DNA of 15,761 nt from a virus: the UHGV virus genome UHGV-0242293. One strand, written 5' to 3'. The position numbers and the translations under genes are program-made. The notes under the pieces were generated by a model. The model was not told the origin of the DNA. It did not search any database and was given only the letters and a program-made list of their open reading frames with translations. Positions 2,186-15,761 of the stretch are shown piece by piece. The stretch's first letter is position 1. Each line of letters opens with the position of its first letter.

Positions 2186-2438
2186 CGTTTTCGTCCTGAC
2201 AGTGTTTAATCATTTTTACCTGGCTGGCACAGCGTGCCAGCGCGTTCTCAAGCTGCCGGATATCGGCACTTAAATCGCCGTTCGTCTGCGGGTCACTGCC
2301 CGGCATCGGGCAAAGACTCACTTTCGGGCAGGCGTTGGGGACAATCACTGGCGTCAGTGCAGGCCGGACGCTGGTGCAACCGGCGCACAGCATCAGGCAG
2401 GTCAGCACCGTACCAGCGGCGAAAATCTTCGTTTTCAT
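2148..2438 (-). CDS. lysC: LysC, Rz1-like outer-membrane lipoprotein spanin, embedded out of frame in lysB and overlapping R
   Basis: Internal ATG at 2438 preceded by a GAGG Shine-Dalgarno. Product begins MKTKIFAAGTVLTCLMLCAGC, with a signal peptide and lipobox (LCAG-C) and a Pro-rich mature part. 96 codons, as in P2 LysC. Confidence 0.75.
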   Translation of the reverse strand: MKTKIFAAGTVLTCLMLCAGCTSVRPALTPVIVPNACPKVSLCPMPGSDPQTNGDLSADIRQLENALARCASQVKMIKHCQDENDAQTRQPAQGAD

Positions 2439-2718
2439 TGAGTAACCTCGTGATGGTTTTCTCGCGCTGTGCTTCACGCTTCGCGGCGTTCTCCAGTTCC
2501 TGACGCAGTGCCACCTGCGCCAGCTCGTTTTTGTCTGCTCTGGTGAGGGCAACATGAAGCTGATTTTTCAGCATGGTGATGGTCACCTGCTGTTCACTGG
2601 CGACGTTGTTCACCCTGTCCAGCGAGGCGCGCAGGCTGGCGTTTTCATGCTTCGCCAGAAACAGACCCGCCACCGCCAGCGATAACAACACAACCATCAC
2701 AATCATCAGCCTTGACAT
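2293..2718 (-). CDS. lysB: LysB, Rz-like inner-membrane spanin
   Basis: 141-aa ORF with an N-terminal TM helix (IVMVVLLSLAVAGLFL) followed by a coiled-coil-like region; position and length match P2 LysB. Confidence 0.85.
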   Translation of the reverse strand: MSRLMIVMVVLLSLAVAGLFLAKHENASLRASLDRVNNVASEQQVTITMLKNQLHVALTRADKNELAQVALRQELENAAKREAQREKTITRLLNENEDFRRWYGADLPDAVRRLHQRPACTDASDCPQRLPESESLPDAGQ

Positions 2719-3131
2719 GGTTCCCGCCCCTCAAAACGCTGACGGCAGGCCGTACGTATCAGCCGGAAGAACACCGATACCACGAGGTAAATCAGCGCAG
2801 TAAAAATCCACCCGGCAGCGACCAGCGAGATAAATGTCGCCACCATCACCACCAGAGCCGCTGCCCGCCTGCGCCACGGCACCGGCTGCAAAAACAGCGA
2901 CGTGACAATCTTCACGGCCAGCGATTCCGGCGGCAGCTCCCGCCCGTAGCGTTCCAGCACATACTCCGTGGCATACACGCCGACACCACCGGCAACCACA
3001 CAGATAACCGTCGCCAGAATCGCCCAGGCAGCGACAAAACTGACGACCACGCTCTGCGGGTAAATCAGGGACAGTGCCAGCATCAGCGCCAGCGACACGT
3101 GCAGCATCAGTGAAAGGGATAATTTCTTCAT
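2706..3131 (-). CDS. lysA: LysA, membrane protein of the lysis cassette (lysis timing)
   Basis: 141-aa ORF with several hydrophobic helices; syntenic with and the same length as P2 LysA. Confidence 0.85.
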   Translation of the reverse strand: MKKLSLSLMLHVSLALMLALSLIYPQSVVVSFVAAWAILATVICVVAGGVGVYATEYVLERYGRELPPESLAVKIVTSLFLQPVPWRRRAAALVVMVATFISLVAAGWIFTALIYLVVSVFFRLIRTACRQRFEGREPCQG

Positions 3132-3145
3132 GGTGTTTACTCCGT

Positions 3146-3643
3146 TTAAGCCGGTACGCCGCCAGCGGTACGCCAGACGGTGACCAGTTTTTCCAGTGAA
3201 TGCTCACGCTGACCGTAACCGGCACCCGGCAGGGACGCCCAGATATTGCGACAGCGTGAAATGGCGCGCTCAATGCGTCCCGCCCGGATGTCATCCAGTG
3301 CTCCGCGTTCGCGGATCAACTGAATGGCGAGTCTGTCCTGTGACAACGGACTAAAATCCGGCAGGGCAAGCTGTTTGCGGTAATGCGGCCAGAACAGGTA
3401 AAGCTGCTGATAGCGACCGGAGGCCGTGGATTTTTCACCGCGACGGTTAAACACCTTCGCCGGTCGGCCATGTGCGAACGGGTGGTCACTGTAGTCGGTG
3501 AAGATTTCCGGCTTTCCGTCCAGTCCGGTGACTATCACGTCATAGCCCCGGTTTTTCGTCAGCGGATGATTCGCCGTCCCTTCGGACACGGCCAGCATGT
3601 CGAGAAAGGCCGCGATATTCTGATGCGTGTTAATTACCGGCAT
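3146..3643 (-). CDS. K: Endolysin gpK (lysozyme-like)
   Basis: 165-aa ORF (MPVINTHQNIAAFLDMLAVSEGT...) matching P2 gpK; directly downstream of the holin. Confidence 0.9.
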   Translation of the reverse strand: MPVINTHQNIAAFLDMLAVSEGTANHPLTKNRGYDVIVTGLDGKPEIFTDYSDHPFAHGRPAKVFNRRGEKSTASGRYQQLYLFWPHYRKQLALPDFSPLSQDRLAIQLIRERGALDDIRAGRIERAISRCRNIWASLPGAGYGQREHSLEKLVTVWRTAGGVPA

Positions 3644-3924
3644 TACTGTTTCCCCCTGCCCTTAAAACGGCGCTGAATGGCAATCTCAATCACCTGATAA
3701 CCGGCGATACCCAGCATGGAGCCGATACCGCACACCGCAGGCAGTGACAGGTCAGGAAACTGCACCAGAACAACACCGGCAACCATCGAGACAAAACCAC
3801 CGAGCAACATGCGCCCGATAAACAGACGCGGGGTGATGGGTTCACCACCGGCAAGCACCTTGCCGACAACAATCAGCACCCCAATCATGAAAAGCGACAG
3901 GACGCTTTTTTCTTCTGCTGTCAT
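3643..3924 (-). CDS. Y: Holin gpY
   Basis: 93-aa ORF with hydrophobic helices and a charged C-terminus (RRFKGRGKQ); matches P2 gpY in length and position. Confidence 0.88.
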   Translation of the reverse strand: MTAEEKSVLSLFMIGVLIVVGKVLAGGEPITPRLFIGRMLLGGFVSMVAGVVLVQFPDLSLPAVCGIGSMLGIAGYQVIEIAIQRRFKGRGKQ

Positions 3925-3927
3925 GCG

Positions 3928-4131
3928 TTACTCCCACAGATTGACAGTTTCAGCCACGGGCGCGGTCTGAACGTCGGGCAGTTCGACGGCGGTGCCGTGC
4001 GGCAGCACCGCACCCAGTTCAGCCAGTCCCGGATTTGCGGCGAGCACGGCCTTGAGCACGCCCTCAGTGCGCCCGTAATACCGGACACAGATGGCGTCGA
4101 GCGTGTCGCCCTGTAGCGCAAAGGTCTTCAT
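3928..4131 (-). CDS. X: Tail protein gpX
   Basis: Internal start at 4131 (MKTFALQGDTLDAICVRYYGRTEGVLKAVLAANPGL...) gives 67 aa as in P2 gpX; ATGA overlap with the L stop. The 90-aa ORF in the track is an upstream extension. Confidence 0.85.
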   Translation of the reverse strand: MKTFALQGDTLDAICVRYYGRTEGVLKAVLAANPGLAELGAVLPHGTAVELPDVQTAPVAETVNLWE

Positions 4132-4640
4132 CAGATTTGACTCACAATGCAGCGCGGCTTGTCCTGGATTCGCGCCACTGCCCAGCGCATATCCCGCCAC
4201 AGCTCATCAATGGTGCTGTCAATGCTGTCGGCCTTCTTGTCGCCTTTGGCACTGGCATCCACGCCGCGATAACGCTCATAAAGCGATGCGGTCGCCATCG
4301 CACACACGGCGCGCTCGTAGTAAAAAACTTTGATGCTTTCACCGTCGATGTCGTCCGCCGGGACTTCCGCCAGACGCGTAAAACCGGCGGCAATTTTCTG
4401 TTCGCGGTACTCGTACAGCTCCGCATTCGTCTCCGCCATGCCTGACTTGATGGCCTCACGCAGACGGGCGGGGGCGACGGTCTGCTCAAGGCGCATACGT
4501 TCCCGGACGCGCTTCGGGTCGATATCGGGAAAAAAGAACGTGTTTTTAATCACCGGCTCGTCGCCTGCCGGTTGCGGGATGACCACCGTACCCTCACCGG
4601 ACACGGGAGCCTCCTTTCGCGGAATAATCAGCGTCATCAT
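4131..4640 (-). CDS. L: Head completion / stabilisation protein gpL
   Basis: Start chosen at MMTLIIPRKEAPVSGEG (4640), giving 169 aa as in P2 gpL; the track ORF extends 20 codons further upstream. Confidence 0.85.
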   Translation of the reverse strand: MMTLIIPRKEAPVSGEGTVVIPQPAGDEPVIKNTFFFPDIDPKRVRERMRLEQTVAPARLREAIKSGMAETNAELYEYREQKIAAGFTRLAEVPADDIDGESIKVFYYERAVCAMATASLYERYRGVDASAKGDKKADSIDSTIDELWRDMRWAVARIQDKPRCIVSQI

Positions 4641-7646: not shown

Positions 7647-9419
7647 ATGACCATCACCACAGACACCACTCTTTTACACGACCCGCGTCGTCAGGCGGCG
7701 CTGCTGTACTGGCAGGGGTTTTCCGTGCCGCAGATTGCCGCCATGTTGCAGATGAAACGCCCGACGGTGCAGAGCTGGAAACAGCGCGACGGCTGGGACA
7801 GCGTTGCCCCCATCAGCCGTGTCGAAATGAGTCTGGAAGCGCGGCTGACCCAGCTCATCATCAAACCGCAGAAAACCGGCGGTGACTTCAAGGAAATTGA
7901 CCTGCTGGGACGTCAGATTGAACGACTGGCACGGGTCAACCGCTACAGTCAGACCGGCAACGAGGCAGACCTTAATCCGAACGTCGCTAACCGCAACAAA
8001 GGCGGGCGTCGCAAACCGAAAAAGAATTTTTTCAGTGACGAGGCCATCGAAAAGCTGGAGCAGATTTTCTTTGAGCAGTCTTTCGAATATCAGTTGCACT
8101 GGTATCGCGCCGGGCTTGAGCACCGCATCCGCGATATCCTGAAATCCCGCCAGATTGGCGCGACGTTTTATTTTTCCCGCGAGGCGCTGCTGCGCGCCCT
8201 GAAAACCGGTCATAACCAGATTTTTCTGTCGGCCAGTAAAACGCAGGCGTATGTGTTCCGCGAATACATCATCGCCTTTGCCCGGCTGGTTGACGTTGAC
8301 CTGACCGGTGACCCGATTGTCCTGGGCAATAACGGCGCAAAACTGATTTTTCTCGGCACCAACTCCAACACCGCACAGAGCCATAACGGCGACCTGTACG
8401 TCGACGAGATTTTCTGGATCCCGAATTTTCAGGTACTGCGTAAGGTGGCATCAGGTATGGCCTCACAGAGTCACCTGCGCTCGACCTATTTCTCCACCCC
8501 GTCCACGCTGGCGCACGACGCCTACCCGTTCTGGTCGGGTGAACTGTTCAACCGGGGACGCGCCAGCGCCGCCGAACGCGTGGAAATCGACGTCAGTCAT
8601 AACGCCCTTGCCGGAGGTCTTCTCTGTGCGGACGGCCAGTGGCGGCAGATTGTCACCATTGAGGACGCCCTGAAAGGCGGCTGCACGCTGTTCGACATTG
8701 AGCAGCTCAAACGTGAAAACAGCGCCGACGATTTTAAAAACCTGTTCATGTGTGAATTTGTTGACGACAAGGCGTCGGTGTTCCCGTTCGAGGAGCTGCA
8801 ACGTTGCATGGTCGACACGCTGGAAGAATGGGAAGACTATGCGCCGTTTGCCGCAAATCCGTTCGGCTCCCGCCCGGTATGGATTGGTTACGACCCGTCA
8901 CACCGTGGCGACAGCGCCGGATGCGTGGTACTGGCACCGCCGGTGGTGGCCGGTGGCAAATTCAGAATACTTGAGCGTCACCAGTGGAAAGGCATGGACT
9001 TTGCCACCCAGGCGGAATCCATCCGCAAACTCACCGAAAAATATAACGTTGAATACATCGGGATTGATGCCACCGGCCTCGGTGTCGGCGTGTTCCAGCT
9101 CGTGCGCTCGTTCTATCCCGCCGCGCGCGATATCCGCTACACGCCGGAAATGAAAACCGCAATGGTGCTCAAGGCAAAAGACGTTATCCGCCGTGGCTGT
9201 CTGGAATATGACGTCAGCGCCACCGACATCACCAGCTCGTTTATGGCTATCCGCAAGACCATGACCAGCAGCGGACGCAGCGCCACCTATGAGGCCAGCC
9301 GCAGCGAGGAAGCCAGCCACGCCGATCTCGCCTGGGCGACTATGCACGCCCTGTTAAATGAGCCACTCACCGCCGGTATCAGCACCCCGCTGACATCCAC
9401 CATTCTGGAGTTTTACTGA
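7647..9419 (+). CDS. P: Terminase large (ATPase) subunit gpP
   Basis: Start at MTITTDTTLLHDPRRQAALLYWQGF (ATG 7647, SD ggcgagg upstream) gives 590 aa, matching P2 gpP; the track ORF starts 10 codons earlier. Confidence 0.92.
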   Translation: MTITTDTTLLHDPRRQAALLYWQGFSVPQIAAMLQMKRPTVQSWKQRDGWDSVAPISRVEMSLEARLTQLIIKPQKTGGDFKEIDLLGRQIERLARVNRYSQTGNEADLNPNVANRNKGGRRKPKKNFFSDEAIEKLEQIFFEQSFEYQLHWYRAGLEHRIRDILKSRQIGATFYFSREALLRALKTGHNQIFLSASKTQAYVFREYIIAFARLVDVDLTGDPIVLGNNGAKLIFLGTNSNTAQSHNGDLYVDEIFWIPNFQVLRKVASGMASQSHLRSTYFSTPSTLAHDAYPFWSGELFNRGRASAAERVEIDVSHNALAGGLLCADGQWRQIVTIEDALKGGCTLFDIEQLKRENSADDFKNLFMCEFVDDKASVFPFEELQRCMVDTLEEWEDYAPFAANPFGSRPVWIGYDPSHRGDSAGCVVLAPPVVAGGKFRILERHQWKGMDFATQAESIRKLTEKYNVEYIGIDATGLGVGVFQLVRSFYPAARDIRYTPEMKTAMVLKAKDVIRRGCLEYDVSATDITSSFMAIRKTMTSSGRSATYEASRSEEASHADLAWATMHALLNEPLTAGISTPLTSTILEFY

Positions 9420-10438
9420 TGAGTAAGAAAAAAGGGAAAACACCGCAGCCAGCGGTGAAAACAATGACTGCCAGCGCCCCGAAAATGGAGGCATTCACCT
9501 TTGGTGAGCCGGTGCCGGTACTCGACCGCCGTGATATTCTGGATTACGTCGAGTGCATCAGTAACGGCAGATGGTATGAGCCACCGGTCAGCTTTACCGG
9601 TCTGGCAAAAAGCCTGCGTGCTGCCGTGCATCACAGCTCACCGATTTACGTTAAACGCAATATTCTGGCTTCAACGTTTATCCCGCACCCGTGGCTGTCC
9701 CAGCAGGATTTCAGCCGCTTTGTGCTGGATTTTCTGGTGTTCGGTAATGCGTTTCTGGAAAAGCGTTACAGCACCACCGGTAAGGTCATCAGACTGGAAA
9801 CCTCACCGGCAAAATATACCCGCCGTGGCGTGGAGGAGGATGTTTACTGGTGGGTGCCGTCCTTCAACGAGCCGACAGCCTTCGCGCCCGGCTCCGTGTT
9901 TCACCTGCTGGAGCCGGATATCAATCAGGAGCTGTACGGCCTGCCGGAATATCTCAGCGCCCTTAACTCTGCCTGGCTGAATGAGTCGGCCACGCTGTTC
10001 CGCCGCAAGTATTACGAAAACGGCGCTCATGCCGGATACATCATGTATGTCACCGATGCCGTGCAGGATCGCAACGATATCGAAATGCTTCGCGAAAACA
10101 TGGTTAAGTCGAAAGGCCGCAACAACTTTAAAAACCTGTTTCTCTATGCCCCACAGGGGAAAGCCGACGGCATTAAAATTATCCCCCTCAGTGAAGTGGC
10201 GACGAAGGACGATTTTTTTAATATCAAAAAAGTCAGCGCCGCAGATCTCCTGGACGCACACCGCATCCCCTTTCAGTTGATGGGCGGTAAGCCGGAGAAT
10301 GTCGGGTCACTAGGAGATATTGAAAAAGTGGCAAAGGTCTTTGTCCGCAATGAACTCATTCCATTACAGGAGAGAATAAAGTCAATAAATGAATGGTTAG
10401 ATATGGAAGTAATAAAATTCCTTGATTATAACTTATAA
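9419..10438 (+). CDS. Q: Portal protein gpQ
   Basis: 339-aa ORF (MSKKKGKTPQPAVKTMTASAPKMEAFTFGEP...) matching P2 gpQ; start overlaps the P stop (TGATG). The last ~15-30 codons are AT-rich, suggesting the 3' end was remodelled by the adjacent insertion. Confidence 0.88.
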   Translation: MSKKKGKTPQPAVKTMTASAPKMEAFTFGEPVPVLDRRDILDYVECISNGRWYEPPVSFTGLAKSLRAAVHHSSPIYVKRNILASTFIPHPWLSQQDFSRFVLDFLVFGNAFLEKRYSTTGKVIRLETSPAKYTRRGVEEDVYWWVPSFNEPTAFAPGSVFHLLEPDINQELYGLPEYLSALNSAWLNESATLFRRKYYENGAHAGYIMYVTDAVQDRNDIEMLRENMVKSKGRNNFKNLFLYAPQGKADGIKIIPLSEVATKDDFFNIKKVSAADLLDAHRIPFQLMGGKPENVGSLGDIEKVAKVFVRNELIPLQERIKSINEWLDMEVIKFLDYNL

Positions 10439-10449
10439 GTAAATATATA

Positions 10450-10478
10450 AAGTTGGCGGAATGCAATCCCGCCAACTT
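10450..10478. terminator. Perfect 10-bp hairpin between convergent Q and the retron effector gene; candidate bidirectional terminator
   Basis: aagttggcgg-(9 nt loop)-ccgccaactt read directly from the sequence, lying between the Q stop (10438) and the minus-strand effector stop (10481), with A/T-rich flanks on both sides. Confidence 0.5.
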
Positions 10479-10480
10479 AA

Positions 10481-11188
10481 CTATATATACTTCCTTTTTA
10501 CTCTACTTAATTCTATCACTGATGAGGAGTGACAAAATGACAAATTAATAGTATCGATATAATCCAAAATTTGACTCTCAACCTCAATAAAAATATTTTT
10601 GGGCCCATTACTAATCGATATACCGATTTCATCCAAAACAGCCATCATTTTTCTCTGATGAGTTTTATATTTATAGTCTTTATTTTCCTCTGTAATATGT
10701 GCATTGGCTTCCTCAATAACACATTTGATTCTAGATATTATTTCTAGATAATCTCTCGAAACAGATATATCACCGCCTTGCGCTTCAGGGAACATAACCC
10801 TATACCATCTAAAAAAATTAACTTTCTCTGGATAGATGCTACTTCTTTTAGTTAACTCAGCACTTGCAAATTCTCTAAACATCGTCAGATGACTAGTGTA
10901 ATTACTATTATTATTATTTTTAACTCCAGCGTTATATGTCATCAAAGCAATCATAACACCAAAAACGGTAACAAAAGTTGTTATAAGCCATCCAAACGCC
11001 TGAAAATACATTACTATACCAGATGTTTTTTCCGCAAAAAATTTTAAGCACTGGCTATCGAAGCATATATCACGCTCATATAGCTTTTCATTCTGAATAG
11101 TTTCAAAAAGAGAAATTAGCGAAAAAATCAAAAAAAGAGCTGACGACACACCGACAATATATTTGAGAAGTCTAATATTTGCATTCAT
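10481..11188 (-). CDS. Retron-associated effector: two N-terminal transmembrane helices plus a ~150-aa soluble C-terminal domain of unknown function
   Basis: 235-aa ORF. Hydrophobic stretches LLKYIVGVSSALFLIFSLISLF and IVMYFQAFGWLITTFVTVFGVMIALMTY. Its ATG overlaps the RT stop as ATGA (11185-11188), indicating translational coupling. AT-rich, unlike the phage backbone. Confidence 0.75.
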   Translation of the reverse strand: MNANIRLLKYIVGVSSALFLIFSLISLFETIQNEKLYERDICFDSQCLKFFAEKTSGIVMYFQAFGWLITTFVTVFGVMIALMTYNAGVKNNNNSNYTSHLTMFREFASAELTKRSSIYPEKVNFFRWYRVMFPEAQGGDISVSRDYLEIISRIKCVIEEANAHITEENKDYKYKTHQRKMMAVLDEIGISISNGPKNIFIEVESQILDYIDTINLSFCHSSSVIELSRVKRKYI

Positions 11189-12375
11189 AATGGTTTTAAA
11201 GATGCCAATCTAGATTTAAAACACTCCAGTTTTTCTTTAAATGATTCAGAGCGAGTAAGAATAATCATCTTATATTTCGTCAAATCATATTTTCTTTTAT
11301 ACCAATGTTTATTTTGATTACCTTTCGAATACGACAACTCTAAACTTTTTATAGCTGCATCAATCACAGCAACATCTCTTTTAGATGGCATCGGTTTTAT
11401 TGCCTGCAACTGTTTCTTGAATGATTCATATTTTTCATGCGCAACACGGCCAAGCTTATTCACTCTCCCCATACATCTATTGAATTCTTTTCTGTATGCA
11501 ACACTTGTTTTTGTGTTATTTTTTGCCGCCAGTAATTTCAAATTATGTATAGATGCCCTGATTCTTTTGACTTCATCGGATGGTAGTCGAGGTGAGTCAT
11601 AGTCAACTCTTAAACCATGTACTTTTATAGGTTCAGATGAACAGTGAAATATTTTAGTTTTGCGCTTATTTATCGGCAAGTCATGCTCAGAAAGCATCCT
11701 CTCTATATGGCTTTGCATTTGAGAAAAATCATAATTACTTATTTTAGATGACACGGTAATATCATCTACCAAACGCGTATAAACAAGTCCTTTCCTCTGC
11801 GCACGTCTTACCACATCCCCTTCAACAGCGAATAAACACAAAGTTGCTATATAGCTTGATGTTAAGGCCCCCTGTACGACAAAATCATCCTTAGTACATA
11901 TATCCACCAAGTATTCAAGAGCCTCATCCTTAATATGCAATATCTCCTCAAACACGCTCCTAACCAGATCTCTATGGATATTATCGAAAAAATTACTTAT
12001 ATCCACCTTGAGAACTGTTTTTGCTCCACAATGAGCCTTTGCACATGAAACATAGTCACGTTTGACATTAGAATTTAAAACATCATTTTTACTGGGAACT
12101 GAACCAAACAAAAATGAAGGAAAAACAACCAATTCCTTAAAGATACGTTTATTAATTCTACTCTGTAATAATCTCATTTTAGGATGCAGGGAGTAGACAA
12201 TCCGTTTGCTTCCGTCAATTTTGGGAATTTCTTTTAGAGTATATTTCTCATCTAATGGTAATTCTGCAATAGCTTTAAGCTCTTCAACAGAAATCGATAA
12301 AGCCTTTGACAACTTTTCAAGTGTTGTGATAGGAGCATTGGATTTGCTGTATGGTTTAAATTTATCCATAAACAT
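11185..12375 (-). CDS. Retron-type reverse transcriptase
   Basis: RT motifs in the translation: LKVDISNFFDNI (motif A), QGALTSSYIATLCLF (motif B), YTRLVDDITV (YxDD active site), NKRKTKIF, then KVHGLRV where retron RTs have the VTG signature. Block-by-block similarity to retron Ec86 RT from memory. Start is uncertain: 12375 or 12369 is favoured by alignment, but 12411 and 12459 are in frame. Confidence 0.85.
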   Translation of the reverse strand: MFMDKFKPYSKSNAPITTLEKLSKALSISVEELKAIAELPLDEKYTLKEIPKIDGSKRIVYSLHPKMRLLQSRINKRIFKELVVFPSFLFGSVPSKNDVLNSNVKRDYVSCAKAHCGAKTVLKVDISNFFDNIHRDLVRSVFEEILHIKDEALEYLVDICTKDDFVVQGALTSSYIATLCLFAVEGDVVRRAQRKGLVYTRLVDDITVSSKISNYDFSQMQSHIERMLSEHDLPINKRKTKIFHCSSEPIKVHGLRVDYDSPRLPSDEVKRIRASIHNLKLLAAKNNTKTSVAYRKEFNRCMGRVNKLGRVAHEKYESFKKQLQAIKPMPSKRDVAVIDAAIKSLELSYSKGNQNKHWYKRKYDLTKYKMIILTRSESFKEKLECFKSRLASLKPL

Positions 12376-12443
12376 ACCATTCAAATTCAAAGTTACGTAC
12401 GGTCTTCCCATACTCAAGGGTGGAACAGCAGAGATGCTTACAT

Positions 12444-12593
12444 CAACAATTGTCAGCAACAGCCTCTGCTATCTTTCGACCGTACGTAATGTCGTCGGCT
12501 ACGGCACCATCGTAGTTGACGACGGTGGGGCCTCGCTGATAGGTCCATAGTGGACGCTTTTTTGTAAAAGCAAAAACTGACAATTTAATGTTG
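12444..12593 (-). ncRNA. Candidate retron msr-msd non-coding RNA
   Basis: Immediately upstream of the RT on the same strand. An interrupted inverted repeat (minus strand caacaTTAAattgtcag at 12577-12593, and ctgacaattgttg at 12444-12456) brackets ~120 nt. Inside are stem-loops gcttttacaaaaaagc, gtccactatggac, and a longer imperfect hairpin gtcgtcaactacg/cgtagccgacgac. Boundaries and the branching G are not determined. Confidence 0.4.
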
Positions 12594-12646
12594 TTGACTG
12601 CCGCATACCAAGCGAATCGCTGGTGCGCTAAGAATAATGCAACAAA

Positions 12647-12676
12647 AAAATAAGAATTTCAACCGGGTAACTGCAA
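12647..12676 (-). promoter_or_regulatory. Candidate sigma70 promoter for the retron ncRNA-RT-effector operon
   Basis: On the minus strand: TTGCAG (12676-12671), an 18-nt spacer, then TATTTT (12652-12647), about 50 nt upstream of the proposed a1 repeat. Confidence 0.35.
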
Positions 12677-12700
12677 GCCAGCGACATCGTTTAGCGCGCA

Positions 12701-12719
12701 GTGCTTTCCCCGCCTCGCC
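12701..12719. other. P2-type cos site (19-nt cohesive end)
   Basis: The minus strand reads GGCGAGGCGGGGAAAGCAC, which is the P2 cohesive-end sequence as I recall it, followed by TGCGCGCT. It lies between the terminase/portal genes and the tin/old-equivalent locus, as expected. Confidence 0.8.
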
Positions 12720-12742
12720 CGCCCGCTTCATGGGGCGGTTTT
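12719..12742 (+). terminator. GC-rich hairpin plus T-tract next to cos; possible intrinsic terminator
   Basis: ccgccc-(8 nt)-gggcgg followed by tttt on the plus strand. It abuts the cos core, so it may instead be part of the packaging site. Confidence 0.3.
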
Positions 12743-12925
12743 AATGCAGTAGCATGACCACTCAACTAGCGCGCCAGTCCTGATGTCGCCAGGCAGTTAT
12801 TGTTCTCTGACTTGCGTGCGCTTCGATGCAGAGTAATGCACTTCCTGAATTGCTCGCATTCGCATCGTTATCATGATAGAAAACAGGTAGTTATTTGTGC
12901 GCAACTTAAGAAGAAATCACTAATT

Positions 12926-14470
12926 ATGAAAAAGATTTATGAATTAACTACTGGTAGAGCGCTTAAGTATTTTCTGCAGCATGATTCATACACTACTCTG
13001 GAGCTACCCAGTTATGTCGATTTTTCTTCCTTGCTTGAAGAAATCAACTCCGCGATAGATGAAGGTAAAATCAACTTCCAACCTGACTCCAAGTCATTGA
13101 TGGGGAAGAATATAAATTACGAGGTTTTAGTCAGCAAAGATGGCTTATATAGCTGGCGACGAATAACACTAATTAATCCTCTGTACTACGTGTATTTTTG
13201 TAAACTTATTACATCCCCTTCCAACTGGAAGGCTATAAAGAATAAATTTAGAGAGTTTGAGTCTAATGATCTTTTTTTATGCTCAAGTACCCCAGTGAGC
13301 AAAAAGAACACCTCAAACGTAGCTGCATCTGTTTTAAACTGGTGGGAAGATTTTGAACAAAAAAGTCTTTCATTGGCTCTTGAGTATGAGTTCATGTTCA
13401 GCACAGATATTTCAAACTTCTACCCTTCTATTTACACTCATAGCTTTGAATGGGTATTCATCTCAAAAGAAGAGGCCAAAAAGAAAGAAAATAACAATAA
13501 CCCAGGACGATTGATTGACACTCATATCCAGATGATGATGAGTAATCAGACAAACGGAATACCATTGGGTAGTACGTTGATGGATACATTTGCCGAATTA
13601 ATTTTAGGCGAAATTGATTTACAGCTAAGAAAAAAAACTGAAGAGCAAAAAATAACGGATTACAAAGTAGTTCGCTACAGAGATGATTATCGAATATTTT
13701 CAAGCAGTAAAGATGATTTGGACAAAATCTCAAAGTGTTTGGTTGAGGTCTTAGGTGAGTTTGGGCTTGATTTAAACTCAAGAAAAACAGAACTACATGA
13801 CGACATCATTCTTCACTCTCTTAAATCAGCAAAAAAAGAATATATTATAGAAAGGTCGTTCAACTCCCTACAGAAAATGTTGTATGCAATATATTTATTT
13901 TCTTTAAAACATCAAAACTCCAAAATTACAGTTAGATATTTAAATGATTTCTTGCGAAAATTATTTAGGAAGAAAAAGATCACAAATAGTGGGCATCAAC
14001 TAGATGCAATGCTTGGAATTATTTCAAGCATCATGGCTAAAAACCCAACCACCTACCCAGTGGGAATGGCTATTTTCGCAAAACTCTTGACCTTCCTTTA
14101 TGACGACGATGAACTCAAATTTGGCAAGTTACAACAACTTCATTGTAAACTAGGTAAACAACCAAATACTGAAATGTTAGATATTTGGTTTCAACGAGTT
14201 CAAGGGAAGATACACACACAATGGGAAGGCGATTACAAAACAGCCCTATGTCAACGCATAAATGATGAACTCAAGGGAAAAAAAACATTTACCATTGATG
14301 GCCTGTGGGATGTAGAGTGGATTCCGGGCTCAGCCAAAAGTAAAAACAAACAGAAAATACTATCAATTTTGAAAAAAACAAAAATTGTGGATTTAGATGC
14401 ATTCGAAGAAATGGATAATGATATTACACCAGAAGAAGTGAACTTATTCGACAAGGAACACAGCGCTTAA
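12926..14470 (+). CDS. Abi-like reverse transcriptase (proposed Abi-P2 / UG-Abi class) with a C-terminal alpha-helical domain
   Basis: 514-aa product from the ATG at 12926 (the track ORF begins in GC-rich cos-proximal DNA at 12800). RT motifs FSTDISNFYPSIYTH, GIPLGSTLMDTFAELIL, VVRYRDDYRIF (YxDD), GLDLNSRKTEL; the C-terminal ~200 aa lacks RT motifs. No VTG motif, and no obvious structured ncRNA or partner gene. It sits where P2 carries tin/old, where Abi-P2 RTs have been reported. Confidence 0.8.
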   Translation: MKKIYELTTGRALKYFLQHDSYTTLELPSYVDFSSLLEEINSAIDEGKINFQPDSKSLMGKNINYEVLVSKDGLYSWRRITLINPLYYVYFCKLITSPSNWKAIKNKFREFESNDLFLCSSTPVSKKNTSNVAASVLNWWEDFEQKSLSLALEYEFMFSTDISNFYPSIYTHSFEWVFISKEEAKKKENNNNPGRLIDTHIQMMMSNQTNGIPLGSTLMDTFAELILGEIDLQLRKKTEEQKITDYKVVRYRDDYRIFSSSKDDLDKISKCLVEVLGEFGLDLNSRKTELHDDIILHSLKSAKKEYIIERSFNSLQKMLYAIYLFSLKHQNSKITVRYLNDFLRKLFRKKKITNSGHQLDAMLGIISSIMAKNPTTYPVGMAIFAKLLTFLYDDDELKFGKLQQLHCKLGKQPNTEMLDIWFQRVQGKIHTQWEGDYKTALCQRINDELKGKKTFTIDGLWDVEWIPGSAKSKNKQKILSILKKTKIVDLDAFEEMDNDITPEEVNLFDKEHSA

Positions 14471-14569
14471 CGAAACAATGTTATTAACTCAACATGACTT
14501 CGTTAAGCATTAAAGCGAACAGTCATATGAAATTTCGACATCCCTAACGCCTCGCAAGCTCGTTGTTCA

Positions 14570-14614
14570 CCCCCGCCAGCACTGAAAGCGAGTTTCAGCG
14601 TCGACGGGGTTTTC
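14570..14614 (+). terminator. Candidate intrinsic terminator downstream of the Abi-like RT
   Basis: Imperfect GC-based hairpin (ccccg...ctgaaa-gcgag-tttcag...cgggg) followed by ttttc, about 100 nt after the RT stop. Confidence 0.4.
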
Positions 14615-14635
14615 TATGGTCAACGTGGTGACAGA

Positions 14636-14854
14636 TTATGGGCACGCGTGAAGGTAGAAATATGGACGGTTGGGATTATTGATTTCTCCCATACGGCTGC
14701 AGTTATCACTGACGATCTCAGTCCCTCCGACCAACTCGTAGAGGGTCAGATTCTCTTTGACCATAATTTGTAAACAATAGCCATCAGCCGCAGACTCTTG
14801 CACGAGTACAATGGCGGAACCGGACGCATAGCTAGTAATGTATGCATTAGTCAT
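14636..14854 (-). CDS. Hypothetical small protein (~72 aa)
   Basis: ORF 14636..14896; the internal ATG at 14854 has a GGAAG Shine-Dalgarno 9 nt upstream. Balanced amino-acid composition and ~50% GC. No family recognised. Confidence 0.35.
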   Translation of the reverse strand: MTNAYITSYASGSAIVLVQESAADGYCLQIMVKENLTLYELVGGTEIVSDNCSRMGEINNPNRPYFYLHACP

Positions 14855-14957
14855 AATGACATGCTTCCAAAGCAAGATCGCCACGCAGTTCCGCATGATC
14901 CATCAGTTGCTGATACCAACCATCAAATGGAAGCAAAATCAACCATTTCAATCATTT

Positions 14958-15119
14958 TTATATGTTTGTTGAGAATCCCGGCCACTCATCAGCGACCGGA
15001 TACGTGAATTTTTCCCCGTCATAATTTACGGTCGCGCCACGCGCCAGCGCCTCAAGCTCCCATCGCTGTGGCCTGATACCGTTCTGAGCAAGGTCAACGC
15101 GGATACGGGTAATTTGCAT
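14958..15119 (-). CDS. Hypothetical small protein (53 aa), not in the ORF track (below 60 aa)
   Basis: Hand translation of the minus strand: MQITRIRVDLAQNGIRPQRWELEALARGATVNYDGEKFTYPVADEWPGFSTNI. Lies 61 nt upstream of the previous ORF on the same strand. No family recognised. Confidence 0.3.
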   Translation of the reverse strand: MQITRIRVDLAQNGIRPQRWELEALARGATVNYDGEKFTYPVADEWPGFSTNI

Positions 15120-15188
15120 TCGTTCCGACCGGGTCAGTCTGGCCGATGGCGCTATTTCATGCGGTTTTAACGGGCTTCCGTTTCTTTG

Positions 15189-15208
15189 CTGACATCGTGT
15201 TATGTCAG
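15189..15208. promoter_or_regulatory. Perfect 7-bp inverted repeat with a 6-bp spacer; candidate operator in a divergent intergenic region
   Basis: CTGACAT-cgtgtt-ATGTCAG read directly, about 70 nt upstream of the minus-strand 53-aa ORF and about 60 nt upstream of the plus-strand ORF at 15269. Confidence 0.3.
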
Positions 15209-15268
15209 TTTACTGGATACAGGGCAAGTGAATGCCCCTTTCCATGAATTAGATTAAAGGCTTGCAAA

Positions 15269-15472
15269 ATGAACAATAACAGTAAGAAAACTTTGAGTAA
15301 GAAAAGAACCAAGAAAGCCAAAAAGAAGTCGCTTACCCCTGAACAAAAAGCATTGCAAGCAGAACAAGCAGCAAAAAAAGCGCAAATTATAGAGAATAGG
15401 CGCTCTATTACAGCTCATGCTATTAATCTTTTTCAGCAATATACAGCACTCCGTAAAAAAGGATTGTCGTAA
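15269..15472 (+). CDS. Hypothetical small, very basic, Lys-rich protein (67 aa)
   Basis: ORF with an AAAGG Shine-Dalgarno 8 nt upstream of the ATG. Product MNNNSKKTLSKKRTKKAKKKSLTPEQKALQAEQAAKK... AT-rich context. Confidence 0.4.
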   Translation: MNNNSKKTLSKKRTKKAKKKSLTPEQKALQAEQAAKKAQIIENRRSITAHAINLFQQYTALRKKGLS

Positions 15473-15761
15473 ATGCCACTCTATAGCACTATCTTTTATA
15501 TGTATCTCGCAGACAGGGCATACAATAAGCCCCATAGATGTTACAGGTAGCTTTTTGCCACCGATTAAGCGTAATGTATTTGCATTCTGGTTATGTACTT
15601 TCTTTTGGTTCCTAACAATGAAACAATCAGAAGCGTGGAAACTCGCGACTGATGAAGAATCTAGTATGACTTTTTTAAGCAATCAGTACATAAGTCCATT
15701 AACATCACACGAACCCAATAATGAAATATCTCTTATCATGGATGGAACGGATATAGCCATT

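What the first reader, a model, noticed from the sequence alone, without database searches (positions are those of the whole stretch)
12926..14470. Second, unrelated reverse transcriptase at the tin/old position on the other side of cos
A 514-aa RT with motifs A, B and C (RYRDD) but no VTG, no obvious partner gene, and a long C-terminal helical domain. This composition is typical of Abi-type single-gene RTs (AbiA/AbiK/Abi-P2), which are thought to make untemplated DNA. It occupies the variable locus where P2 has tin and old.
Basis: partly seen in the sequence, partly recalled or inferred. Interest (0 to 1): 0.65.

Follow-up and report, generated by a model that had tools for sequence, protein, structure and literature searches.

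The report
Known Abi-P2 antiphage polymerase in prophage

Summary
The ORF at 12926-14470 (+, 514 aa) is real and the coordinates are correct. It is Abi-P2, a UG/Abi class 1 reverse-transcriptase-like polymerase. It matches the PADLOC AbiP2 model end to end (E 5e-160). It differs at 3 residues from the P2-EC58 "putative reverse transcriptase" deposited in 2006 and is 100% identical to phage pro147 ORF33. It is 75% identical over its full length to the P2-EC30 protein, whose crystal structure (PDB 7r08) and protein-primed, template-independent DNA synthesis are published. The priming tyrosine (Y30, equivalent to EC30 Tyr61), motif A Asp161, motif B QTNGIPLG and the family hallmark YRDD are all present, and there is no VTG. 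The gene starts 207 nt from the P2 cos 19-mer (12701-12719). It reads away from cos toward gpA, exactly where P2 has old and tin. I found no conserved partner gene, Rfam match, significant fold or DGR-type repeat. In the EC30-type locus the RT is the only gene between cos and gpA. 64 of 5426 complete E. coli genomes carry this cassette, 42 of them together with the retron Ec48 on the other side of cos.

The parts
12701..12719 (.). P2 cos 19-nt cohesive-end sequence (GTGCTTTCCCCGCCTCGCC, the complement of P2 cosR). It marks the centre of the gpQ-cos-gpA cargo hotspot. Similarity to P2 continues to about 12748 and then stops, which is the left edge of the cassette.
   Evidence: Alignment with P2 33350-33593. 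P2 annotation of cosR, old, tin and the old-tin mRNA start.
12874..12882 (+). Putative extended -10 promoter element (TGATAGAAA) about 45 nt upstream of the ATG. This is inferred, not shown.
   Evidence: CATGATA(A/G)AAA is the best conserved block of the leader in 9 of 10 alleles of 75-100% protein identity. It lies at a distance from cos similar to the mapped P2 old-tin mRNA start. The simple promoter scan did not call it.
12926..14470 (+). Abi-P2 gene (514 aa + stop): an RT-like palm and fingers with no thumb, followed by a C-terminal alpha-helical solenoid.
   Evidence: PADLOC AbiP2 E 5e-160, profile positions 4-487 of 489. Pfam RVT_1 at residues 142-291. PDB 7r08 E 7e-258 over residues 1-508. 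99.4% identical to P2-EC58, 74.9% to P2-EC30, 100% to phage pro147.
13013..13015 (+). Codon for Tyr30, the counterpart of the priming tyrosine Tyr61 of P2-EC30 Abi-P2 (546-aa numbering; offset 31).
   Evidence: Query residue 1 aligns with chain residue 32 of 7r08. Y61F abolishes DNA synthesis in vitro (PMC9508834). P28 and Y30 are invariant down to a 30%-identical homologue.
13406..13408 (+). Motif A catalytic Asp161 (TDISNFYPS).
   Evidence: invariant column D161.
13547..13570 (+). Motif B, QTNGIPLG (residues 208-215).
   Evidence: T209, G211, I212, P213 and G215 invariant.
13676..13687 (+). Motif C, YRDD (residues 251-254). The Arg in YxDD is the hallmark of the Abi-P2 group. Y251 corresponds to EC30 Tyr282.
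   Evidence: Simon & Zimmerly 2008 (PMC2602772). Figiel 2022.
14465..14508 (+). Hairpin spanning the stop codon (18-nt arms, 83% complementary, 8-nt loop). In other alleles the same position holds GCCATGTT-N8-AACATGGC followed by T-rich sequence, which looks like the gene's 3' hairpin or terminator.
   Evidence: the repeat finder I2. Alignment of downstream regions of 6 alleles.
14571..14613 (+). G+C-rich hairpin followed by TTTT, a likely intrinsic terminator of the RT transcript in this allele. Its sequence also occurs next to other cargo genes.
   Evidence: Sequence. The fold shows a 16-pair stem. Window 14544-14612 matches other hotspot contexts at 90-93%.
14636..14896 (-). ORF85/86 (86 aa), an unannotated small ORF convergent with the RT. 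It travels with this allele only, and it is undecided whether it is a real gene.
   Evidence: The 476-bp stretch is present in 63 genomes, always unannotated by PGAP. It has no Pfam hit and no similarity to P2 Orf91. It is absent from the EC30-type locus and from the 91% allele L028. The alleles show 3 third-position and 3 amino-acid-changing differences.
14958..15193 (-). 3' end of the P2 replication gene A. This is the right edge of the cassette. The gene is truncated at 15193 in this window.

Best explanation
The gene encodes Abi-P2, a stand-alone abortive-infection polymerase carried as lysogenic-conversion cargo in the cos-proximal hotspot of a P2-like prophage, in the slot and orientation of P2 old/tin.

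**Shown for the 75%-identical EC30 protein, inferred here from conserved residues:**
- The protein assembles into trimers or hexamers.
- It attaches the first nucleotide to the hydroxyl of a tyrosine in the fingers (Y30 here).
- It then extends single-stranded DNA of random sequence without a template, using the RT-like palm (D161, D253, D254). The C-terminal helical lobe takes the place of the thumb and forms a channel for the nascent strand.

**Known for EC30 only:** expressed from the prophage, it excludes a superinfecting phage (T5).

**Inferred from relatives (DRT4/DRT6, AbiK):** the cell normally keeps the DNA product low. A phage DNA-binding or recombination protein stabilises or redirects the product, which leads to growth arrest or death before phage release.
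For: - **Family identity:** PADLOC AbiP2 at 531 bits, full length, against 160 bits for the next family.
- **Close relatives:** 99.4%, 74.9% and 100% identity to P2-EC58, P2-EC30 and pro147 ORF33.
- **Structure:** PDB 7r08 E 7e-258 over residues 1-508.
- **Functional residues:** Y30, D161, the motif B residues T209, G211, I212, P213 and G215, and RYRDD are invariant down to a 30%-identical homologue.
- **Published function of EC30 Abi-P2:** trimer, products of about 40 nt and over 100 nt, Y61F inactive (PMC9508834). T5 plating drops by more than 7 orders of magnitude and the effect is lost when the YRDD region is deleted (PMC8632793).
- **Location:** cos at 12701-12719, the same slot and direction as P2 old. 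G+C is 32-39% against 54-61% in the phage backbone. The gpQ-cos-gpA hotspot and AbiP2 within it are described in PMC9122126 and PMC13586616.
- **Single gene:** in the EC30-type locus the RT is the only gene between cos and gpA. No neighbour cluster is shared by the distant loci. The identical RT occurs both with and without retron Ec48.
- **Trigger model:** DRT4 and DRT6 (PMC12783706).
Against: - No experiment exists for this allele. In the literature I could read, the T5 exclusion is attributed to P2-EC30 orf570 (PMC2602772) and the polymerase assays used the EC30 protein (PMC9508834). I could not read Odegrip 2006.
- A 2021 review states that it was unclear whether other elements of the locus are needed for Abi-P2 defence (PMC8632793).
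- Abi-P2 purified without bound DNA and showed weak activity in vitro (PMC9508834).
- The trigger and the killing step are unknown for Abi-P2 and are borrowed from relatives.
- ORF85 (14636-14896) always accompanies this allele and cannot be excluded as a modifier.
Confidence: 0.87

Rival explanations
1. It is a two-part system. The Abi-P2 RT would need the co-travelling downstream module: the 86-aa ORF85 on the opposite strand, or an antisense or 3' RNA from 14471-14957. Such a module could act, for example, as an antitoxin-like regulator.
For: The 476-bp downstream stretch is present in 63 genomes, essentially all that carry this allele. The ORF is intact in all 22 loci examined. It was annotated in the 2006 record and in pro147. 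A 2021 review left open whether other elements of the locus are needed.
Against: The module is absent from the EC30-type locus, where only 103 nt separate the RT stop from the gpA stop, and that allele is the one shown to exclude T5. It is also absent from the 91%-identical allele L028 and from all alleles at or below 82%. It has no Pfam hit and no homologue in the phage collection outside this cassette. PGAP does not call it. The 3 third-position and 3 replacement differences show no sign of purifying selection.
Confidence: 0.06
2. It is a template-dependent RT system of the DRT2/DRT9/retron kind that copies a neighbouring non-coding RNA.
For: Several UG/Abi relatives use an adjacent ncRNA (PMC12039810 and PMC12483538, listed). 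[quoted passage not shown] The leader contains conserved blocks.
Against: No Rfam match at E <= 1 in 10000-15761. The leader and 3' region fold no better than shuffles (z +0.74 and -0.40). The conserved leader blocks look like a promoter and leave about 35 nt of 5' UTR. The downstream sequence is not conserved between alleles beyond a terminator-like hairpin. The EC30 protein makes DNA with dNTPs alone and is primed by a tyrosine. There is no VTG, and retron, intron and Drt models score far below their cut-offs.
Confidence: 0.03
3. It acts only together with the adjacent retron Ec48, as a paired two-RT defence island straddling cos, for example with one RT guarding or backing up the other.
For: 42 of the 64 complete genomes with this cassette also carry retron Ec48 across cos, as do 9 of the 10 places.
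Against: An identical Abi-P2 occurs without the retron (L016). Retron Ec48 occurs without Abi-P2 (H86). The EC30-type locus has no retron. Both systems are published as self-sufficient. The co-occurrence is most simply explained by clonal spread of one prophage.
Confidence: 0.04

Closest known systems
P2-EC58 ORF544 'putative reverse transcriptase' (GenBank AM157368, Odegrip et al. 2006); also WP_001605760.1 and phage pro147 ORF33
   Same: The same gene. There are 3 amino-acid differences from EC58 (K105R, G451E, S472N) and none from pro147 or the RefSeq protein. The flanks (cos, ORF85, gpA) are the same.
   Different: Only the annotated start differs. The 2006 record adds 30 N-terminal residues that are not conserved between alleles. 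In this window gpA is truncated downstream.
Abi-P2 of prophage P2-EC30 (orf570; PDB 7r08)
   Same: 75% identity over the whole length. It shares the priming Tyr, YRDD, the palm and fingers without a thumb, the C-terminal helical solenoid and the genomic slot.
   Different: 25% sequence divergence. The EC30 locus has no ORF85 module and no retron Ec48. Function (T5 exclusion, in vitro polymerisation) was measured for EC30, not for this allele.
AbiK (Lactococcus) and AbiA
   Same: The same kind of enzyme: a tyrosine-primed, template-independent ssDNA polymerase with an RT-like domain and a helical domain, acting in abortive infection (PMC9508834, PMC11077055).
   Different: Much weaker matches: AbiK 105 bits and AbiA 43 bits, against 531 for AbiP2. 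[quoted passage not shown] AbiA has a HEPN domain and is dimeric. AbiK and AbiA are plasmid-borne in Gram-positives.
DRT4 (UG15), DRT6 (UG12) and UG14
   Same: The next-best families. They are single-gene class 1 UG/Abi RTs. DRT4 also makes random ssDNA from a priming tyrosine and forms a dimer of trimers (PMC12783706).
   Different: Scores of 146-160 bits in PADLOC. NCBIfam Drt4 scores 122 bits against a cut-off of 450. The protein is not a member of these families.
P2 old and tin
   Same: They occupy the same slot, with the same orientation relative to cos and the same role as prophage-encoded exclusion genes (PMC9122126).
   Different: The proteins are unrelated (an OLD ATPase/Toprim nuclease, and Tin). 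Sequence similarity to P2 ends about 30 nt past cos.

Membership tests
Abi-P2 (UG/Abi class 1) | Full-length match to the family profile, clearly better than to any sister family | tested here: met
   PADLOC AbiP2 E 5e-160, 531 bits, protein residues 1-512 on profile positions 4-487 of 489. The next family, Drt6, scores 160 bits.
Abi-P2 (UG/Abi class 1) | Catalytic Y-R-D-D, with Arg at the x of YxDD (the group hallmark per Simon & Zimmerly 2008) | tested here: met
   RYRDD at residues 250-254, invariant in the 4-sequence alignment. Hallmark cited from PMC2602772.
Abi-P2 (UG/Abi class 1) | Priming tyrosine on the fingers alpha2-alpha3 loop (EC30 Tyr61) | tested here: met
   Y30 aligns with Tyr61 (offset 31). 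P28 and Y30 are invariant. Whether Y30 actually primes was not tested.
Abi-P2 (UG/Abi class 1) | RT palm and fingers without a thumb or motif 7, followed by a C-terminal alpha-helical solenoid | tested here: met
   Shown by sequence alignment only. Residues 1-508 align without large gaps to 7r08, whose structure shows this architecture (PMC9508834). Pfam RVT_1 covers only residues 142-291. No structure was predicted here.
Abi-P2 (UG/Abi class 1) | Stand-alone gene with no conserved partner | tested here: met
   In the EC30-type locus the RT is alone between cos and gpA. No flanking ORF cluster is shared among the 28-41% loci or between them and the P2 loci. ORF85 is restricted to alleles of 94% identity or more.
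Abi-P2 (UG/Abi class 1) | Template-independent, protein-primed DNA synthesis and phage exclusion (T5) | not testable with these tools
   Published for the EC30 allele only (PMC9508834; PMC8632793).
Retron RT | Retron RT profile above cut-off, a VTG motif, an adjacent msr/msd ncRNA and an effector | tested here: not met
   NF038233 scores 34.8 bits against a cut-off of 235. No VTG. No Rfam match and no significant fold. The retron in this window is the separate Ec48 system at 10481-12459.
Group II intron RT/maturase | Intron RT profile above cut-off, a maturase/thumb (X) domain and a flanking intron RNA | tested here: not met
   TIGR04416 scores 42 bits against a cut-off of 300. No Rfam group II intron match.
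Diversity-generating retroelement RT | A template repeat / variable repeat pair near the RT and a target gene | tested here: not met
   Only three chance-level direct repeats of 19-28 nt occur in 10400-15761.
DRT4 (UG15) | NCBIfam equivalog score above cut-off | tested here: not met
   NF041749 scores 122 bits against a cut-off of 450 and covers only residues 14-291.

The most novel reading that the evidence does not exclude
The 487-bp stretch that always follows this allele (14471-14957) might be an allele-specific regulator of Abi-P2 rather than leftover DNA. It holds a stop-codon hairpin, a terminator and the convergent 86-aa ORF85. A small protein or antisense transcript from it might hold the polymerase in check. 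Alternatively, Abi-P2 and retron Ec48, placed on either side of cos in two thirds of carriers, might cooperate functionally.
Probability: 0.08. Interest if true: 0.35.

Novelty: already known. Interest (0 to 1): 0.1.

Why it matters
It adds little. The window shows the textbook arrangement of the P2 cos-proximal defence hotspot, here loaded with two different reverse-transcriptase-based abortive-infection systems: retron Ec48 on the gpQ side and Abi-P2 on the gpA side.

Two questions remain open about Abi-P2, and sequence analysis cannot settle either. One is which phage factor triggers it. The other is how untemplated DNA stops infection.

Tried and rejected
- **Longer start codons.** TTG 12800 (556 aa) and the ATG used in 2006 (544 aa) are rejected. 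The extension is not conserved between the EC30 and EC58 alleles.
- **ncRNA.** An Rfam scan at E <= 1 found nothing. The leader and 3' region do not fold better than shuffles on the + strand. The one strong hairpin is a terminator-like stem.
- **DGR.** No TR/VR-like repeats.
- **Partner gene.** I clustered all ORFs of 60 aa or more within 2.5 kb of the RT in 32 viral contigs of 28-100% identity. Only the P2 backbone, retron Ec48 (5 loci) and ORF85 (9 near-identical loci) recur.
- **ORF85 as a P2 Orf91 homologue.** No similarity, no Pfam hit.
- **Coding test on ORF85.** Only 6 substitutions, 3 at third positions and 3 replacements, so it is uninformative.
- **Genome-contig scan.** The single-protein query returned only 3 close loci and gave little.
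- **Odegrip 2006 (PMC1367236).** Not held, so I could not read it. Its results are cited through later papers.
- **Structure prediction and fold search.** Not run. A 75%-identical solved structure makes them redundant.

Full report
**1. What is in the window.** The window is the late-gene end of a P2-like (Peduovirus) prophage, read in the reverse of the P2 map. It contains, in order:
- capsid scaffold, terminase and portal genes up to gpQ at 9419-10438;
- a low-G+C block (32-39% against 54-61% in the backbone).

The low-G+C block has two parts separated by the P2 cos site:
- A complete retron Ec48 lies on the - strand. Its RT (11185-12459) matches PADLOC RT_IV at E 1e-176. Its 2TM effector (10481-11188) matches NCBIfam retron_Ec48_2TM at 227 bits against a cut-off of 65.
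- The P2 cohesive-end 19-mer lies at 12701-12719. The next ~30 nt are near-identical to P2, after which similarity ends.
- The ORF of the finding follows on the + strand.

**2. Checking the observation.** ATG 12926 to stop 14470 gives 514 aa, and RefSeq uses the same coordinates in identical loci.

The 2006 GenBank records start 30-31 codons earlier. Those residues are unrelated between the two alleles:
- EC30: MQIDAVKCATASRNTFNFMIKNIIPNKSIIL
- EC58: MHFLNCSHSHRYHDRKQVVICAQLKKKSLI

Everything after MKK is 75% identical. Residues 1-31 of the longer EC30 construct are not seen in the crystal (PMC9508834). ATG 12926 is therefore the real start.

**3. Identity.**
- The PADLOC AbiP2 model matches end to end (E 5e-160, 531 bits). 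The next families score far lower: Drt6 160, UG14 150, Drt4 146, AbiK 105 and AbiA 43 bits.
- NCBIfam models for Drt4, Drt3b, group II intron RT, AbiA, retron St85 and Drt5 all score far below their curated cut-offs.
- A tblastn search of phage records gives 100% identity to Escherichia phage pro147 ORF33, 99.4% to the P2-EC58 "putative reverse transcriptase" (AM157368) and 74.9% to the P2-EC30 "reverse transcriptase" (AM157365). The three differences from EC58 are K105R, G451E and S472N.
- Against the PDB, chain 7r08_A (Abi-P2 of prophage EC30) matches residues 1-508 at E 7e-258.
- The protein is widespread. 64 of 5426 complete E. coli genomes carry at least 80% of 12600-14900. The exact protein is indexed in 1857 blocks of the assembly collection.

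**4. Position.** In P2 the order is A, orf91, tin(-), old(-), the old-tin mRNA start, then cosR. In the window the RT starts 207 nt from cos and reads away from cos toward gpA, whose stop is at 14958 on the - strand.

The region between gpA and gpQ that contains cos is the published P2 defence hotspot (Rousset 2022, PMC9122126). AbiP2 is listed among the systems found in P2 hotspots (PMC13586616; PMC9226505).

**5. Partner gene or RNA?**
- **EC30-type locus.** In E. coli (L009) the order is portal, cos, RT, then 103 nt, then the gpA stop. The RT is the only cargo gene.
- **Wider survey.** I collected 32 viral contigs whose RT is 28-100% identical and clustered all flanking ORFs of 60 aa or more. 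The recurring clusters are the P2 backbone, retron Ec48 (5 loci) and a small ORF (9 loci, all with RTs at least 94% identical). Nothing is shared among the distant loci.
- **Independence from the retron.** The identical RT occurs without retron Ec48 (L016). The retron occurs without the RT (H86). 42 of the 64 carrier genomes have both. The two cassettes are independent.
- **RNA.** There is no Rfam match at E <= 1. The leader and 3' region fold no better than shuffles (z +0.74 and -0.40). There are no TR/VR-like repeats.
- **Leader.** Alleles of 75-100% identity share blocks in the leader (AATGCAC, CTCGCA, CATGATA(A/G)AAA). I read these as a promoter with an extended -10 (TGATAGAAA, 12874-12882), which leaves about 35 nt of 5' UTR. 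This is inference.
- **3' end.** A hairpin directly after the stop codon is conserved between alleles: GCCATGTT-N8-AACATGGC plus T-rich sequence. In this allele it is an 18-nt-arm variant at 14465-14508. A stronger terminator-like stem with TTTT lies at 14571-14613.

**6. The one loose end: ORF85/86 (14636-14896, - strand).**
- The 476 bp after the RT travel with this allele in 63 genomes, and the ORF is intact in all 22 loci I held.
- It is missing from the EC30-type locus and from a 91%-identical allele.
- It has no Pfam hit, no similarity to P2 Orf91 and no relative in the phage collection outside this cassette. PGAP does not call it.
- The six differences among alleles split 3 third-position to 3 replacement.

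It is not a conserved partner. Whether it is a gene at all is undecided.

**7. Mechanism.**

*Shown for the EC30 protein (PMC9508834):*
- It has two lobes. One is an RT-like palm and fingers without a thumb. The other is an 11-helix solenoid that occupies the thumb position and forms a channel for nascent DNA.
- It forms trimers, and a dimer of trimers in the crystal.
- It makes DNA products of about 40 nt and over 100 nt from dNTPs alone.
- Y61F abolishes synthesis, while Y46F does not.

*Inferred here:* the window protein keeps Y30 (equivalent to Tyr61), Y15 (Tyr46), D161, Y251 (Tyr282) and D253/D254. These are invariant even in a 30%-identical homologue, so it should work the same way.

*Not known for Abi-P2:* the trigger and the toxic step. 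The best available model comes from DRT4 and DRT6, its next-closest families. There, random ssDNA is made and degraded by a host exonuclease until a phage DNA-binding protein protects its 3' end, after which ssDNA accumulates and the cell dies (PMC12783706). For AbiK, phage single-strand annealing proteins determine sensitivity.

**8. Comparison and novelty.** This is the P2-EC58 allele of Abi-P2. It has been in GenBank since 2006, is annotated by RefSeq as "RNA-directed DNA polymerase" and is recognised by PADLOC and DefenseFinder. It lies in a hotspot described in 2006, 2022 and 2026. Every family feature that can be tested by sequence is met, and retron, group II intron, DGR and DRT4 membership all fail.

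Nothing about the gene would surprise a specialist. I score interest at 0.1.

Noticed in passing
window 14958-15761: The replication gene A is present only as its last ~78 codons (14958-15193, - strand). All related loci have a 758-aa gpA. Beyond 15186 the window is a mosaic of pieces of an HNH-endonuclease cargo gene found in the hotspot of a different P2-like prophage (E. coli K_EC180, L020). Window 15186-15465 matches L020 6001-6280 (+). Window 15465-15611 matches L020 6634-6488 (inverted, 100%). Window 15609-15761 matches L020 6828-6980 (+). L020 6281-6487 and 6635-6827 are missing. The junctions overlap by 8, 1 and 3 nt. This could be a real rearrangement (a defective prophage) or an assembly artefact, and I could not decide.
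   Followed up: partly
window 10481-12459 (- strand), plus about 12460-12690: A complete retron Ec48 (type IV) sits between the portal gene and cos. Its RT matches PADLOC RT_IV at E 1e-176. Its 2TM effector matches NCBIfam retron_Ec48_2TM at 227 bits against a cut-off of 65. Its msr/msd RNA should lie between the RT start and cos on the - strand, but Rfam gave no match at E <= 1. 42 of the 64 complete E. coli genomes with this Abi-P2 cassette also carry it, and each cassette also occurs without the other.
   Followed up: partly
window 14636-14896 (- strand): An 86-aa ORF (ORF85 of the 2006 EC58 record, ORF34 of pro147) is convergent with the RT. It is confined to Abi-P2 alleles of at least 94% identity, has no detectable homologues or domains, and is not called by PGAP. 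It is unclear whether it is a gene.
   Followed up: partly
window 14465-14508; L009, L028, L031 and L037 just after the RT stop: A hairpin immediately after, and here overlapping, the RT stop codon is conserved in position across alleles of 75-91% identity, while the surrounding sequence is not. It is probably the cassette's own terminator or a 3' stabiliser.
   Followed up: partly
L029, L030, L042, L052 (viral contigs): Several Abi-P2 copies in prophage contigs are interrupted: 504-aa truncations, a 288 + 221 aa split, and a 339-aa fragment. Some copies of this cargo are therefore decaying.
   Followed up: no
E. coli records NZ_CP060946, CP086662, CP116480 and others; L018 and L019: Many finished E. 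coli chromosomes place this RT at exactly 2335-4635. This means the record starts at the first base of the prophage gpA gene. The assemblies were presumably rotated to a replication-initiator gene that was mistaken for the chromosomal start.
   Followed up: no
L007 and L008 (Martelella alba BGMRC 2031 contigs): An Abi-P2 74-80% identical to the E. coli protein is split across two short contigs of an alphaproteobacterial draft genome. This suggests contamination or a recent transfer.
   Followed up: no
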